Assembly (NCBI GenBank): GCA_038087875.1
Contig: CM075988.1
Location: 20,586,001-20,650,000, forward strand
DNA: 64,000 bases
Direction: 5' to 3'
From: Malacoraja senta
Lineage: Eukaryota
A program made the position numbers and the translations under genes. Numbering within the stretch: the stretch's first letter is position 1; the number at the start of each line of letters is the position of its first letter. The notes beneath the pieces are model-generated. The model did no database searches. It worked only from the letters and a program-made list of their open reading frames with translations, and was not told the origin of the DNA. Shown here one piece after another: positions 2,694-63,410 of this stretch.

Positions 2694-2885
2694 ATAGACA
2701 CAAAGTGCTGGAGTATCTCAGTGGGTCAGCCAGCATCTCTGGAGAAAAAGGATGGCTGACGTTTCGGGTAGGGACCCTTCTTCAGACCCGAAACGACACC
2801 TATCCATTTTCTCCGGCGGAGTTGCCTGACCCAGTGAGTTACTCCAGCATTTCGGGTCTATCTTTGCATCAATTGCATCTGCCTC
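2694..2885. repeat. Penelope-derived palindromic unit with hammerhead core on the minus strand (2757-2786)
   Basis: Inverted arms gctggagta..ctcag..ggtcag..cagcatctctggagaaaa / ttttctcc..tgcctgacc..tgagttactccagca. Minus strand reads TCTGAAGAAGGGTCCCTACCCGAAACGTCA. Confidence 0.75.
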
Positions 2886-3494
2886 TTTGGTATAAAGCAG
2901 CAGTTCGTTTAATTGCAACCATTTTTGCATCTCTAGCCTTTCCATGACATTCAAATGAAAACGTGTTGGAAAATTTTTCATATCTGAAATTTAATTTGGG
3001 AAGATTAACTGTGAATTCAAGGGGGTGTGGATGGAGTTCCCACAAAGAGTGGAGCCCCACATCGCTCTCTCCCAGGAGTCCAGCAGATCTAACAATTTCT
3101 CTGAAAGCCTCAAGTCCTGGAAATTGTGAAACAAAACTGTGGCCACATGTTTGGCAGCATTTGATATCCAAAGTGCACCAAATGTTTGATAAGTAGCCTC
3201 ATTTTCTGAAGGACACTCTGTCCACCAACATGTCTCGGATGGCAGGAGAATATTGAGAATCCTGCATGCTTAGATAATCACTACACTATTGTTCCACTGC
3301 TGGTGGTTTAATCACAAAGCAGACGTGTCCATCATCTTGCTGTTCTAAAGCAGTGGAGATTTGCTGGAGACAAGGAACAGCAGATGCTGGAACCGTGAGC
3401 AAAACACAAAGTCAACAGGTCAAGGCAGGCAGCATCTGTGGAGGGAATGGGCAGACGACATTTCAGGTTGGGTCCCTTCTACAGTAGGGGGTGA

Positions 3495-4617
3495 TCATAG
3501 AGTCATACAGCGTGGAAACAGGCCCTTTGGCCCATCGTGCCTACACCAACAAACATGTCCCATCTATACCTGTCCCACCAGTCCGTGTTTGGCCCATATC
3601 CCTCTAAACCTGTCCTATGCATGTACCTATCTAAATGTTTCTTAAATGTTGTGATAGTACCTGCCTCAACTACCTTCTCTGGCAGCTCGTTCCATACACC
3701 GTCCACCCTTTGCGTGAAAAAGTTGCTCCCCAGCTTCCTAATAAATCTTTCACCCCTCACCTTAAACCTAAGCCCTACAAATACAATACAATACAATTTA
3801 TTTGTCATTCGGACCACGTTGAGGTCCAAACGAAATGTCGTTTCTGCAGCCATACATTACAAAACGAAAAAGACCCGAGACACAACACAATTTACACATA
3901 CATCCATCACAGCGCTGTGATGGAAGGCAAAAATAACTTATCTCTCCACTGCACTCCCCCCCCCGATGTCAGAGTCAAAGTCAAAGCCCCCGGCGGGCGA
4001 TGGTGATTGTCCCGCGGCCATTAAAGCCACGGCGGGCGATGCAAGGTCGCGCGGCCATTCTAAGCCGCGCGGGGCGGTGATGTAAAGCCCCGCTCCAGGT
4101 GGTCTTCAACCCCGCAACTCGGGCGGGAGAAGTCGCCGCTGCGGAAGCCCCGAAAAGCAGTCTCCCACCAGGGACCCGCGGGCTTCCGGTGTTACCGTCC
4201 GCCAGACCCGCGGTTGTAGCCTCCGAATCTCTGGGGGTCGGGTCGCAACAGCGCTCCACCACAGCTCCACCCGCTCCGGACTCGCCCAGCCGCGTGACGG
4301 TGAGTAGTCCGCAGCTCCGCAACTGGAGCCCCAGGTCGTTCCTGCTGGAGGCCGCTCCACGTTGCCCAGCCCCAACGACAACGGAGACCCGACAAAGAAA
4401 AGGTCGGGTCTCCCGTGCAGGGGAAAGATTTTAAAGTCCCCCCCCCCCACCCCCCCACCCCCCCACACACATACCCCGACAAAAAAATAAAATAAAAATG
4501 ACATAGAAACGAGACAAAAATAATAAAAATACAGACGGACTGCAGAGGCCTCTGGTTCTCGATTCCCCTACTCTGTCTAAGAGACTGTGCGTTTACCCAA
4601 ATTATTCACCTCATGAG
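3495..4617 (-). mobile_element. Old CR1 3' fragment interrupted by a GC-rich element
   Basis: Minus translation FFTQRVDGVWNELPEKVVEAGTITTFKKHLDRYM. The sequence resumes after 4550. Confidence 0.8.
3778..4550 (-). mobile_element. GC-rich non-autonomous retroelement with Rex-like 3' end and (TTGTA)n tail
   Basis: Splits the host CR1 fragment. The minus-strand end catttcg..hairpin..tgacaaataaattgtattgtattgta and its 5' start both resemble 8596-9426. Confidence 0.6.
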
Positions 4618-5219
4618 GTAGGGGGAGAAATCTGTGGGAGTTGTTTGTGTTTGAGGCCTGACTGATGCCGTGCTGAATACTATCCAAACTCTGGTTGGTA
4701 AAGACCACAGTAGGCAAGGTGGAGATATCTGCTGAGGGAGAGGTCGGACCAGACATATATCTCCTTCGTTCAGTTGCGCTGCTTTTATTAATCTCTGTCC
4801 AGCTGAACTGAATCCTTCTGATGCGCGATAGTGCAGGGAAGATAAAAAAAGAGCTTTGATTTCTGTTTAAATAATTGGCTTTTTCTGAGCAATTTGCACA
4901 ATGATAGCAGATCCCTTTCACTGCTTGCATAAGGCATTCTACACACTCAACGCCACTTTGTACAACATTAGTCAGACTTCCCTACTGAGTATAGAAGTTG
5001 GGAGGTCATGTTACAGTTGTATAAGACATTGGTTAGGCCACATTTAGAGTATTGTTTTCAGTTTTGATCGCCATCATATAGGAAAGACGTTGTCAAGCTG
5101 GAAAAGGTGCAGAGAATAGACACAAATTGCTGTAGAAACTCAGCAGGTCGGGCAGCATCTCTGGAGAAAAGGAATAGGCGACGTTTTGGGTCCAAACCCT
5201 TCTTCAGACTCTTTTTTCA

Positions 5220-5390
5220 GAGAGGGTGAAGTTAGAATAGGTACGGAGAGTTGAAAAGTTAAGATGATTGATGTCCCGCCGGCAGTTAGAAATGAAAAGG
5301 TCTAGAGAGAGTGGAAGGCCAAGAGGAGGGGGACCACTGGAGACAGGAGAAGGGTTCATCACTGGATGGTGAGGAAGTGATGTCTGGCTG
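5220..5390 (-). mobile_element. Penelope-like element ORF fragment
   Basis: Minus translation includes SLDLFISNCRRDINHLNFSTL..SNFTLSE, which I recognise as resembling the region upstream of RT in vertebrate Penelope-like elements. It lies next to a hammerhead-type unit at 5117-5210. Confidence 0.6.
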
Positions 5391-5934
5391 AAGGAAAGGG
5401 TGAATTATTAAATAAAAAAACTTAAAGTAAACACAATAAAGTACAGTCTTAAAGCAATTAGCACAACCAAAGTTACCGGTGTACAATTACCAACAGGTAA
5501 AAGTTGAACACTTTATTAACTTATGTGTCACTAAGAGAATTCTTTATTTTAATGTAGGAAATAATGCCCTGGCATTTGTAAAGGAAAAAAAAACAATTAA
5601 TGGAAAATAGTGCTCTTAAACAGCCTGTGCTCAACTCTATCAAATTTATTCTTCAGTGGAAGAACCTGTGGCTGTGTGTGGATAATTTGTGGTGGGCACA
5701 TGTCTTAGGCTGAAGGCCCAGCCAAGAATAAACTAGTCAATGCCATGTAGAATAGGAAAAGCAGCACTATTTATGAGATACCATAAGTCAGCAAGTTAGT
5801 AGTTCCGTTCTGTAAAGAATGGTTTCAAGATGAACGTATTGTTCCATGTCGGTTCCAATAGAATACAGTGAATGAATAGTCACATTAATTTATTTTAAAA
5901 TGTTCTCAATCTTTGTAGACATACATTTATTTCT

Positions 5935-61361: not shown

Positions 61362-61499
61362 ATAACAGGTTGAAGACTTTATTATAATACCCAAGAATTT
61401 TCCAAGAATATGCCGTACGTGTATAATGAAATTACAAATATGAAATTAAACATAAAAATTACTCGAAAGTGCAATTACAAATGATTAGCCTATTTATCA

Positions 61500-61573
61500 C
61501 TATTTCTCTCGGAACCCCTAGTGACCTCTCACAGAACCCTAGCGTTCCGGGGAACCCCGGTTGAGAAACGCTG
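61500..61573. mobile_element. hAT/Charlie-like terminus
   Basis: Repeated gaaccc subterminal motifs ending ggttgagaaacgctg (reverse complement CAGCGTTTCTCAACC). Confidence 0.55.
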
Positions 61574-61863
61574 CGATATATCAATATACACTTCTGAACC
61601 ATTCAGAAGTTTGATAACTGCAGGGAAGAAACTGTTCCAGTCGGAAGAAGGGTCCTCACCCAAAACTTCACCTATCCATGTTCTCTAAACATGCTGCCTG
61701 ACCCACTGAGGTAATCCAGCGCTTTGTGTCCTTTTGTTCCTGAGTTTGGTAGAGTGTGCTTTCAATCTTCTGTACCTTCTGCACAACGGGATCAGGGAGA
61801 AGAAGGAATGACTCGGGTGAGACAAGTCTTGATGATGTTGGTTGATTTTCCAAGGCAGCCTAA

Positions 61864-62026
61864 TGGGCCTGTCCCACTTAGGCGATTTTTTGGGCAACTG
61901 CCGCAAAATTTTCAACACGTTGAAAATATTTGGGCGACAGTGGTGACAATTTATGCTGTCAGGTGTCCTAGGTGAATTCCATTAAAACTAGTTCCTGGCA
62001 GTCGCCTAAAGAGTAGCCTAAGTGGT
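61864..62026. mobile_element. Harbinger-like MITE, right end clipped
   Basis: taa|tgggcctgtcccacttaggcg ... gcctaagtgg. Same ctgtcccac terminus as 8051 and 31052. Confidence 0.6.
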
Positions 62027-63410
62027 TCATGCTGATGGACTCAATGGTAGGCAGTCTGGTCTGGGTGATAGACAGCTTGGTTAGTTTGTAAGGTGCTACT
62101 GCCTTCCACTGCTTCTGCAGGGCTTCTATATGCTCCTCATACATGGACCATGTAGTATCTAGTTTAGGTTTTGGTTTAGGTTGGTAAAGGTCATGTGTAC
62201 CGCGATACAGTGAAAAGCTTTGTTTTGCATGCTCTCCAAACAGAACAGGTAATATTATCGATAAATACAATCAAGGCAATCTCAAGTACAATAGATAGAG
62301 CAAAGGGGAAGATACAGAATGCAGAATATCGTTCTCAACATTGTAGCGCAACAGTTCCATGGATAAAATCAAATCTCTGCAATGGGGTAGAGATGAATCA
62401 GAGGTCTCCAGCTTATTGAAGGACCATTCAGAAGCCCGAAAACAGAGAGGAAGACAAAACGTGTAAGAAGGAACTGCAGATGCTGGTTTACACTGAAGGT
62501 AGACACAAAATGCTGTTGTAACTCAGCGGGCCAGGCAGCATCTCCAGAGAGAAGAATGAATAATGAAGGGTCTCGACCCGAAACGTCACCTATTCCTTCT
62601 CTCCAGAGATACTGCCTGACCCGCTTAGTTACTCCAGCTTTAAGTGTCTATCAACAGAAGCTGTTTCTGAGTTTGGTTGTATGCACTTTCAAGATTCTGG
62701 ACCGTTTGGCTGAAGGGAGCAGGGTGAATAACAAAAGACCCAGGAGTTAATTTCTCCTCCCGACACAGAGCTCAAACTCTTTGACTTACTTGTCTACCTG
62801 CTTCTTATTCTTTTAGATTGTAGTCCCAAGTCATTGCGATTCTTGGTTCTTCTTGGTCCTCCAAAATATTCCAAATGGAATTTAAACTGGAGGTGGTGGA
62901 GGGAGGACTTAAGCCAGAGAGGGTTTTTGGGAAGAAAGAGCTACCTTAAATTTATGGAGAAATATTAGCAGAAATGTCTTTGGGGAAATGTAACAGAGCA
63001 TTTGCCACTTTCATGAGATACAAACAGATGAGAGGCCGGTCAACACCCAGACCATCAGAAGCAACAATCTTGCTCGTCAAAGCAGCCTCTCCCATTTCCA
63101 CACTTTACATTTGTACTGCTCTGTTTGATTCATGGGAATAATTGCAGTCAATGCTGAGGGAAGCAAATCTGCTCCAGGGCTTTTCTCCCTGCGTGAAACA
63201 TCTCCATATGAGAAACAGAACAATGCGGCTGGGTTCCAGAATTAATAGTTCACCAGTTCTCAGAAATCGTATGAGTGCACATTATCACACAATGTGCACA
63301 TATTGCCTACTAAAGAAAATAGACATACTGCCACATTTTTTTGGATAAAATTAGGAGAGGCATTGATAGGGTTGACAGTCAGAACCTTTTCCCATGATTT
63401 CCCCGGATAG

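What the first reader, a model, noticed from the sequence alone, without database searches (positions are those of the whole stretch)
2694..62650. High-copy short retroelement family carrying a minimal hammerhead-ribozyme core
Seen: the motif TCTGAAGA-A-GGGTCTCGACCC-GAAA-CGTC-ACC recurs about 20 times on both strands. Approximate positions: 2757-, 5179-, 19172+, 23334-, 29370+, 33728+, 36150-/36189+, 36864-, 37445-, 39173+, 41750-, 42610-, 43014-/43153+, 44623-/44666+, 51031+, 52150-, 61641+, 62563+. It always lies inside the same ~100-150 bp unit. Established: CUGAnGA, a stem II, GAAA and a GUC cleavage triplet form the hammerhead core, and Penelope-like pLTRs carry minimal hammerheads with a palindromic stem III (here ACGT) thought to work as dimers. 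Inference: this is a non-autonomous, retrozyme-like Penelope derivative present at about one copy per 3 kb, scattering potential self-cleavage sites through whatever is transcribed here. Stem I pairing is weak in the copies I checked.
Basis: partly seen in the sequence, partly recalled or inferred. Interest (0 to 1): 0.75.

Follow-up and report, generated by a model that had tools for sequence, protein, structure and literature searches.

The report
Dead Penelope ends with minimal hammerheads
The repeat is real and even more common than reported, but it is most likely the short end piece of a known kind of jumping gene (Penelope-like), carrying an already described minimal self-cutting RNA motif that is mutated in nearly all copies here and is probably inactive.

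Summary
Observation confirmed and extended: 45 copies of a 95-139 bp unit cover 7% of the window; 21 of 21 listed positions hold. The majority head fits the published minimal hammerhead of Penelope-like elements (PLEs), but only 2 of 27 copies keep an intact core, and the core decays like the rest of the unit. The copies show PLE insertion marks: head-to-head pairs, an optional ~35 bp tail, 10-14 bp target duplications in 4 of 24 units, and a longer upstream part in 3 copies. Two remnants of a PLE RT-GIY-YIG ORF (Neptune-like) touch a copy. No head-to-tail arrays occur, so these are not retrozymes. PolyA RNA of a relative shows both orientations and no pile-up of ends at the cut site. Not shown: an intact ORF-to-repeat junction, or any cleavage. 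One oddity remains: 5' ends cluster just before the ribozyme core, not at its cut site. This scan reported the same kind of element, and that clustering, before on other DNA. Verdict: new member of a known kind; low interest.

The parts
2694..2882 (.). Head-to-head pair: minus arm 2694-2787 (intact core), plus arm about 2788-2882 lacking the first half of the core
3360..3485 (-). Single diverged copy with tail
5109..5209 (-). Single copy without tail, directly downstream of the PLE ORF remnant
5204..5375 (-). Frameshifted remnant of the N-terminal part of a PLE ORF (just before the DKG motif), Neptune-like
7802..7847 (+). Fragment of the unit, no ribozyme part
10427..10510 (-). Diverged fragment, no ribozyme part
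17922..18262 (.). Head-to-head pair with 160-bp spacer: tailed minus arm 17922-18052, 50-bp plus arm 18214-18262
19171..19306 (+). Single copy with tail
21449..21564 (+). Copy starting inside stem II
22335..22468 (-). Single diverged copy with tail
23005..23072 (-). Fragment, no ribozyme part
23188..23535 (.). Nested pairs: inner pair 23278-23364(-)/23372-23493(+, tailed) with 11-bp target duplication, inserted in the centre of an older pair 23188-23265(-)/23496-23535(+)
29200..29913 (+). Heavily decayed remnant of a PLE ORF (linker and GIY-YIG region matched at 29516-29913; the part before 29360 recognised by eye only), interrupted by a unit copy
29367..29500 (+). Tailed copy inserted into the ORF remnant; 6-bp direct repeat at its ends (chance level 21%)
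30837..30935 (-). Strongly diverged copy
31419..31471 (-). Tail-only fragment
32148..32256 (+). Copy starting in loop II
33600..33864 (+). Tailed copy (33727-33864) with pyrimidine-rich upstream extension
35643..35735 (-). Fragment with duplicated tail segment
36084..36285 (.). Head-to-head pair, arms 89.6% alike, no tail
36789..36894 (-). Single copy without tail; core letters intact, stem II and palindrome broken
37378..37475 (-). Single copy without tail; G12 mutated
39169..39274 (+). Copy of a distinct variant, 13-bp direct repeat at its ends (within a simple repeat)
39340..39411 (+). 3' fragment with tail
41677..41778 (-). Single copy without tail
41887..41993 (-). Single copy without tail
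42503..42639 (-). Single copy with tail
42942..43286 (.). Head-to-head pair: minus arm 42942-43043 with ~100-bp upstream extension (43044-43146), tailed plus arm 43151-43286
44560..44802 (.). Head-to-head pair with 14-bp target duplication: minus arm 44560-44653, tailed plus arm 44665-44802; predicted hairpin of -172 kcal/mol
44622..44653 (-). The only copy with intact core, 4-bp stem II, palindrome and 2-bp stem I; predicted cut between 44624 and 44623
44816..44982 (.). Head-to-head pair of copies that lack the ribozyme part; tail on the plus arm
50860..51122 (+). Copy (51030-51122) with pyrimidine-rich upstream extension
52040..52178 (-). Tailed copy with 10-bp target duplication
55129..55210 (-). 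Copy starting at the GAAA box
56744..56850 (-). Tailed copy starting at about the predicted cut site
56999..57070 (+). Fragment, ribozyme part missing
61640..61734 (+). Single copy without tail
62455..62658 (.). Head-to-head pair: tailed minus arm, plus arm 62563-62658 lacking C3-G5

Best explanation
The unit is most likely the 3' part of the pseudo-LTR (minimal hammerhead, about 65 bp of following sequence, optional tail) of endonuclease-positive Penelope-like retrotransposons, probably of the Neptune clade, and the 45 copies here are decaying, mostly 5'-truncated insertions. Shown: copy number, two 3' end classes, head-to-head pairs, target duplications, neutral-looking decay of the core, PLE ORF remnants touching two copies. 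Inferred from PLE literature: the PLE protein nicks target DNA and starts reverse transcription at one of two internal sites of its RNA (giving the short and the tailed 3' end); synthesis usually stops a few bases before the CUGA box; priming from both nicked strands would give the head-to-head pairs. Inferred: the hammerhead mattered, if at all, in the parent element's RNA (dimer or protein-assisted); the scattered copies would not cut, and paired copies would fold into long hairpins that bury the motif.
For: Majority head matches the published min-HHR consensus feature by feature; descriptor pattern 3 hits versus 0.01 expected. 3' ends: 23 of 45 at model positions 88-118, 21 of 45 at 128-139, tail also seen as the main loose end in 4,132 RNA reads of a relative. 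9 head-to-head pairs (18 of 45 hits), tail on exactly one arm in 7, neither in 2, both in 0, as described for PLEs. Direct repeats of 10-14 bp at the ends of 4 of 24 units, chance 0.07% each. 3 copies share about 100 bp upstream (0 of 500 shuffles reach the scores). ORF remnant at 5204-5375 hits shark proteins whose full-length relatives carry RT plus GIY-YIG; a profile of 28 such proteins finds only 5204-5341 (20 bits) and 29707-29913 (12.3 bits) against at most 3.9 bits in 5 shuffles, both on the strand of the copy they touch. Decay: core 33/270, downstream 143/1080, CpG 62/216.
Against: No intact ORF-3'UTR-repeat junction was seen; both ORF contacts are atypical (one copy is inserted into the remnant, the other follows an N-terminal piece), so the link to Neptune is circumstantial. 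No library of PLE termini could be searched. 20 of 24 units show no clear target duplication. The one-arm tail pattern is not significant alone (about 0.1-0.2 by my rough binomial estimate, not a tool result). No covariation beyond shuffles in 25 copies, one compensatory change only. Stem I is 2 bp and the majority sequence does not fold into the hammerhead as its minimum-energy structure. Rfam gives no hammerhead hit at E up to 10. The sharp 5' edge is not what random truncation predicts.
Confidence: 0.83

Rival explanations
1. A separate non-autonomous, SINE-like master of about 135 nt, derived from a PLE end, is transcribed on its own and mobilised in trans by PLE proteins.
For: 24 of 45 hits start at model positions 2-4; upstream identity among 24 short copies falls to background within about 5-8 bases; loose ends at that edge have low agreement in DNA contigs (0.36). 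Very many DNA contigs carry the unit (88,938 of 18.6 million laid).
Against: 3 of 27 copies run on into a shared upstream sequence, in different parts of the (weakly supported) tree; no tRNA-like head or poly-A tail (sequence); several variant groups all show the same edge.
Confidence: 0.11
2. Non-LTR retrozyme: tandem hammerhead repeats that are cut to monomers, circularised and reinserted.
For: Hammerhead-like head; retrozymes are proposed to derive from PLE termini (bioRxiv 10.64898/2026.07.22.740005). A few 'goes back' joints appear.
Against: No head-to-tail array of the unit among 20 tandem rows; pairs are inverted; helix I is not canonical; unit is shorter than 150-450 bp; none of the 15 listed joints lies at the predicted cut site (145 not shown), and the main back-joint is also in DNA contigs.
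Confidence: 0.03
3. The scattered copies are kept by the host as working cleavage sites that shape transcripts.
For: The unit is in 0.24% of polyA reads of a relative (17,413 of 7,335,232); 2 of 27 copies have an intact core.
Against: Core is not better conserved than its flank; CpG decay hits G12 and the palindrome as often as a CpG outside the ribozyme (12-13% versus 11-14% in DNA contigs); no pile-up of read ends; the best copy lies in a predicted long hairpin; single min-HHRs did not cleave in vitro (PMC4209133).
Confidence: 0.03

Closest known systems
Minimal hammerheads (min-HHR) in pLTRs of metazoan Penelope-like elements (Cervera and De la Pena 2014, PMC4209133)
   Same: CUGANGA, one unpaired base, G10.1-C11.1, GAAA, palindromic four bases at helix III, UH site, short helix I; thousands of single dispersed, variable copies related to truncated PLEs.
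   Different: Stem II is 4 bp with a 4-nt loop (the paper reports mostly longer ones); helix I is 2 bp, at the short end of the listed range; no cartilaginous fish is in the Fig. S3 list that I read.
Insertion architecture of endonuclease-positive PLEs (Craig et al. 2021, PMC8557442; Arkhipova et al. 2013, PMC3846280)
   Same: 5' truncation, adjacent inverted copy head to head, short palindromes at the junction, 30-40 bp tail often at one end only, target duplications of about 8-10 bp, solo pLTRs.
   Different: Here nearly all copies are reduced to the last 95-139 bp with a sharp 5' edge; no full-length copy or partial tandem lies in the window.
Poseidon element PAc of Anolis (Frangieh et al. 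2024, PMC11167929)
   Same: Two 3' ends about 100-135 nt downstream of the hammerhead, matching two internal RT start sites in PAc; no RNA-seq ends at the cut site in either case.
   Different: The ORF remnants here resemble Neptune, not Poseidon; no activity was tested here; an ORF start inside the unit is not shown.
Animal non-LTR retrozymes (Cervera and de la Pena 2020, PMC7229834; bioRxiv 10.64898/2026.07.22.740005)
   Same: Non-coding, hammerhead-bearing, PLE-related repeats.
   Different: Retrozymes are head-to-tail arrays of 150-450 bp units, mostly with canonical hammerheads, and give circular RNA; none of this is seen here.

Membership tests
Metazoan PLE min-HHR | CUGANGA core followed by one unpaired base | tested here: met
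   Majority sequence has it; 14 of 27 copies exact, extra base is A in 26 of 27
Metazoan PLE min-HHR | Helix II closed by G10.1-C11.1 | tested here: met
   19 of 27 copies; stem II cells 90% paired in 25 copies
Metazoan PLE min-HHR | GAAA, palindromic helix III bases, UH triplet | tested here: met
   Majority GAAA-C-GUC; palindrome ACGT exact in 12 of 27, rest mostly CpG decay
Metazoan PLE min-HHR | Helix I of 2-5 bp | tested here: inconclusive
   Only 2 bp, in 13 of 27 copies; third position is an A-C mismatch
Metazoan PLE min-HHR | Compensatory changes in the stems | tested here: inconclusive
   One compensatory pair and wobble variants; 357 of 500 shuffles reach it; expected to be weak in decaying copies
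Metazoan PLE min-HHR | Self-cleavage as dimer or with protein | not testable with these tools
   No bench test; polyA reads show no pile-up of ends, a weak test
Rfam hammerhead families | Covariance-model hit | tested here: not met
   0 hits at gathering; none among 6 hits at E up to 10
Endonuclease-positive PLE (Neptune clade) | RT plus GIY-YIG ORF bounded by this repeat | tested here: inconclusive
   Two remnants touch a copy on the same strand, but no intact junction; Neptune assignment by eye against supplement alignment
Endonuclease-positive PLE (Neptune clade) | Adjacent inverted copy, head to head | tested here: met
   9 pairs, 18 of 45 hits
Endonuclease-positive PLE (Neptune clade) | Optional 30-40 bp tail | tested here: met
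   23 short versus 21 tailed ends of 45; tail in loose ends of reads
Endonuclease-positive PLE (Neptune clade) | 5' truncation of a longer element | tested here: met
   3 of 27 copies share about 100 bp upstream
Endonuclease-positive PLE (Neptune clade) | Target-site duplication | tested here: met
   10-14 bp in 4 of 24 units; absent or unclear in 20
Endonuclease-positive PLE (Neptune clade) | Sequence identity with an annotated PLE pLTR | not testable with these tools
   No repeat library and no genome held; public contig collections gave nothing
Non-LTR retrozyme | Head-to-tail tandem units of 150-450 bp, at least two with complete hammerheads | tested here: not met
   No array of the unit among 20 rows; definition
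Non-LTR retrozyme | Canonical type-I hammerhead with long helix I and loop contacts | tested here: not met
   2-bp helix I
Non-LTR retrozyme | Abundant circular RNA | not testable with these tools
   PolyA library only; no listed joint at the cut site, 15 of 160 joints shown

The most novel reading that the evidence does not exclude
The short copies are not randomly truncated but are run-off ('strong-stop') cDNAs: the PLE reverse transcriptase starts internally at +97 or +135 and falls off the 5' end of an RNA that begins at an initiator-like site 3 bases before the CUGA box; a dimeric enzyme doing this from both nicked strands writes the head-to-head pairs with a tail on one arm. The cartilaginous-fish copies would then be a genome-scale record of how PLEs prime, and would show that the uncut RNA, not the ribozyme product, is the template.
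Probability: 0.35. Interest if true: 0.45.

Novelty: new member of a known kind. Interest (0 to 1): 0.17.

Why it matters
As a ribozyme finding it adds little: minimal hammerheads in PLE termini, dispersed in thousands of copies, were described in 2014, and the copies here are nearly all broken. It matters modestly for annotation (7% of this window; paired copies would make long double-stranded RNA if transcribed) and for PLE mechanism: the fixed 5' edge, two 3' ends and head-to-head pairs make the open question of how PLEs prime and terminate reverse transcription countable in one genome.

Tried and rejected
No whole genome is held, so copy number and full-length elements could not be checked. 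Exact-pattern scans found nothing in metagenome contigs, prokaryote genomes (34) or viral contigs; a shark PLE protein found no loci in viral or genome contigs; these collections are not expected to hold animal DNA. Word-index protein searches with the two remnants gave nothing; the Atlas gave only 0.75 hits, uninformative; Pfam recognised neither remnant. P0002, a fungal repeat protein, was dropped as spurious (1 of 5 hits). The MIR1507 hit at 62521-62628 (below its gathering score) is the inverted pair, not a microRNA. Full-text search for four short motifs of the unit listed 15 papers, none on fish repeats by title. No RNA holder of this exact DNA was listed. The first upstream-match count had an off-by-one error and was redone. 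The tree of 32 of 45 copies has no well-supported branch, so variant groups are tentative. An ORF start inside the unit was considered: one frame from an ATG is open for about 15 codons, but tailed copies disagree after that and no PLE protein matches it. A 3' splice site at the 5' edge (pyrimidine tract plus CAG, as in D. virilis) was considered: it fits the 3 long copies, but short copies keep the AG and share no exon upstream. More A-to-G letters in RNA than in DNA at some positions (13.8% versus 4.0% at A1.1) cannot be read as editing because the runs are from different organisms.
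Full report
Observation. A profile built from 19 of them found 43 hits and none in 10 shuffles; a longer profile found 45 hits covering 4,485 bp, 7.0% of the window. No copy equals the quoted motif; 6 lie within 3 mismatches. The 27 copies that cover the head average 73% pairwise identity. 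The window is a repeat-rich animal sequence with several LINE-type RT remnants; shark proteins are the closest hits of one remnant, so a cartilaginous fish is likely. No genome is held.

The ribozyme motif. The majority head reads CAGU-CUGAAGA-A-GGGU-(4-nt loop)-ACCC-GAAA-C-GUC-AC. This fits the consensus line of Fig. S3 of Cervera and De la Pena 2014 (PMC4209133; I read parts 1-2 of 4 of the text and parts 1-2 of 3 of the supplement): core, one unpaired base, G10.1-C11.1, GAAA, palindromic helix III bases, UH. Helix I is 2 bp, as in the Culex, Oikopleura and some Drosophila rows; no cartilaginous fish is in that list. A descriptor-like pattern finds 3 copies against 0.01 expected. Rfam finds no hammerhead at gathering or at E up to 10. 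Against function in place: only 2 of 27 copies keep core, stem II and UH intact, and 1 of 27 (44654 minus) also keeps the palindrome and a 2-bp stem I; divergence is 33/270 at non-CpG core positions, 143/1080 downstream and 62/216 at CpG positions. Pair counts on 25 copies show one compensatory change and no signal above shuffles. The majority sequence does not take the hammerhead fold as its minimum-energy structure, and inverted pairs are predicted to form hairpins of -88 to -172 kcal/mol that bury the motif.

Insertion anatomy. 3' ends fall in two groups: 23 of 45 at model positions 88-118 and 21 of 45 at 128-139; the difference is a tail of about 35 bp. Eighteen of the 45 hits form 9 head-to-head pairs; the tail is on exactly one arm in 7, on neither in 2 and on both in none (read; not significant alone). 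Direct repeats of 14, 13, 11 and 10 bp bound 4 of 24 tested units, chance 0.07% each; one of the four lies in a simple repeat, and 20 units show nothing clear. One pair sits in the centre of an older pair (23188-23535). Three copies share about 100 bp of pyrimidine-rich upstream sequence (0 of 500 shuffles reach the three pair scores, a fourth candidate failed). Passages of PMC8557442 and PMC3846280 describe these marks for endonuclease-positive PLEs: strong 5' truncation, an adjacent inverted copy, head-to-head junction palindromes, a 30-40 bp tail often at one end only. PMC11167929 (parts 1-2 of 4 and passages) shows for an anole PLE that both DNA strands are cut and extended, that reverse transcription starts at two internal sites that define the tail, that the hammerhead cuts only with protein and is not needed for insertion in vitro, and that no RNA-seq reads end at the cut site.

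Link to a PLE ORF. The frame at 5207-5404 (minus), directly upstream of a copy, hit 5 proteins among 1.84 billion; three are from Chiloscyllium and Rhincodon (25 of 42 identical to P0003), one is unnamed, one was dropped as spurious. P0003 has 94 longer relatives, most with an RT domain and some with GIY-YIG, the PLE layout; by eye they resemble the Neptune1_Ap row in the supplement of PMC8557442 (search output only). A profile of 28 of these proteins matches the window at two places only: 5204-5341 (20 bits) and 29707-29913 (12.3 bits, GIY-YIG region), against at most 3.9 bits in 5 shuffles; tblastn adds 29516-29686 at E 0.008. Both remnants touch a copy on the same strand. But neither is the normal ORF-end-to-repeat junction: the 29.4-kb copy is inserted into the remnant, and the 5.2-kb copy follows an N-terminal piece. 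The PLE origin therefore rests on the motif plus the insertion marks; the Neptune label is circumstantial.

RNA. On the best copy (44535-44662) 17,413 of 7,335,232 polyA reads of a related organism (run X23, about 6% of the run) were laid at 82% likeness, with near-equal depth in both orientations, and no place where many molecules begin or end was listed. Strandedness of the library is unknown and fragmented polyA RNA is a weak test for cleavage. In the best DNA holder (X1) 88,938 of 18.6 million contigs were laid, which shows great abundance but is no copy number. CpG-type changes hit G12 and the palindrome at 12-13% in DNA, like a CpG outside the ribozyme (11-14%). Loose ends confirm the tail and show mixed sequence upstream of the head.

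How it most likely works. Shown: the points above. Inferred: PLE protein nicks the target, primes internally on PLE RNA at one of two sites, and synthesis mostly ends a few bases before the CUGA box; priming from both strands would give the head-to-head pairs; after insertion the copies decay. The hammerhead is a passenger in these copies.

What stays unexplained. 24 of 45 hits start at model positions 2-4, and among 24 short copies identity to the long-copy upstream sequence is 79% at -2, 67% at -3, 46% at -4 and near background beyond -8. Only one clear copy (56850 minus) starts at about the predicted cut site, so the cut product is not the usual template. The edge coincides with an initiator-like motif (pattern recalled from general knowledge; 8 of 27 copies match, background 1.1%, but these are related copies) and with a pyrimidine tract plus CAG; in D. 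virilis Penelope an intron ends at helix I and the start site lies further upstream (passages). My odds: transcript start 0.4, structure- or protein-caused stop 0.3, splice-related 0.2, other 0.1.

Comparison and novelty. It works like the 3' module of PLE insertions and meets most testable min-HHR features at the majority level. It fails the retrozyme tests (no arrays; definitions from passages of PMC7229834, and parts 1-3 of 5 of bioRxiv 10.64898/2026.07.22.740005; its supplements were not read and may list a chondrichthyan family). Seven paper searches (listings only, apart from the papers named) showed no paper devoted to this family, which is no proof that it is unannotated in repeat libraries. 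The scan's own notes report the same kind of element in other shark-like genomes, including the 5' clustering and an edited head-to-head hairpin; a sequence look-up found no look-alike, so I could not check that they are the same family. My reading was set before those notes were seen. Verdict: real, abundant, a new member of a known kind, interest 0.17.

Noticed in passing
window 29915-30215 and about 12 further long hits (e.g. 20934-21247, 34362-34643, 45882-46187, 49333-49643): A second, ~300-bp dispersed repeat at 70-81% identity, SINE-like; one copy interrupts the PLE ORF remnant. ARAGORN finds no tRNA in the window.
   Followed up: partly
window 12871-16843 (+): Near-complete LINE with an esterase-type ORF1 (GDSL), endonuclease and RT in broken frames; a related RT at 591-2513. 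CR1-like by recall.
   Followed up: partly
window 25444-27466 (-): Three ORF fragments without Pfam hit that look, from memory, like a DIRS-type retroelement remnant.
   Followed up: no
window 32201-32971 (+), 57873-58346 (+): C-terminal remnants of L1-like ORF2 (weak zf-RVT hit on the first).
   Followed up: no
window 27973-28243: Two-copy tandem of 133 bp, 90% alike, unrelated to the hammerhead unit.
   Followed up: no
laid stretch 44572-44631: A back-joint in 123 RNA reads and in contigs of three other runs, DNA included: a variant in which a copy's 3' part is followed by a second copy restarting at the GAAA box.
   Followed up: no
window 23188-23535; 44560-44982; 29367-29500: Copies land in or next to older PLE sequence (nested pair, two adjacent pairs, insertion into the ORF remnant), a hint of self-targeting; not tested statistically.
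   Followed up: partly
laid stretch 44594-44623: A-to-G type letters are more frequent in the RNA run than in the DNA run at several positions on both strands; could be editing of hairpins or a species difference.
   Followed up: no
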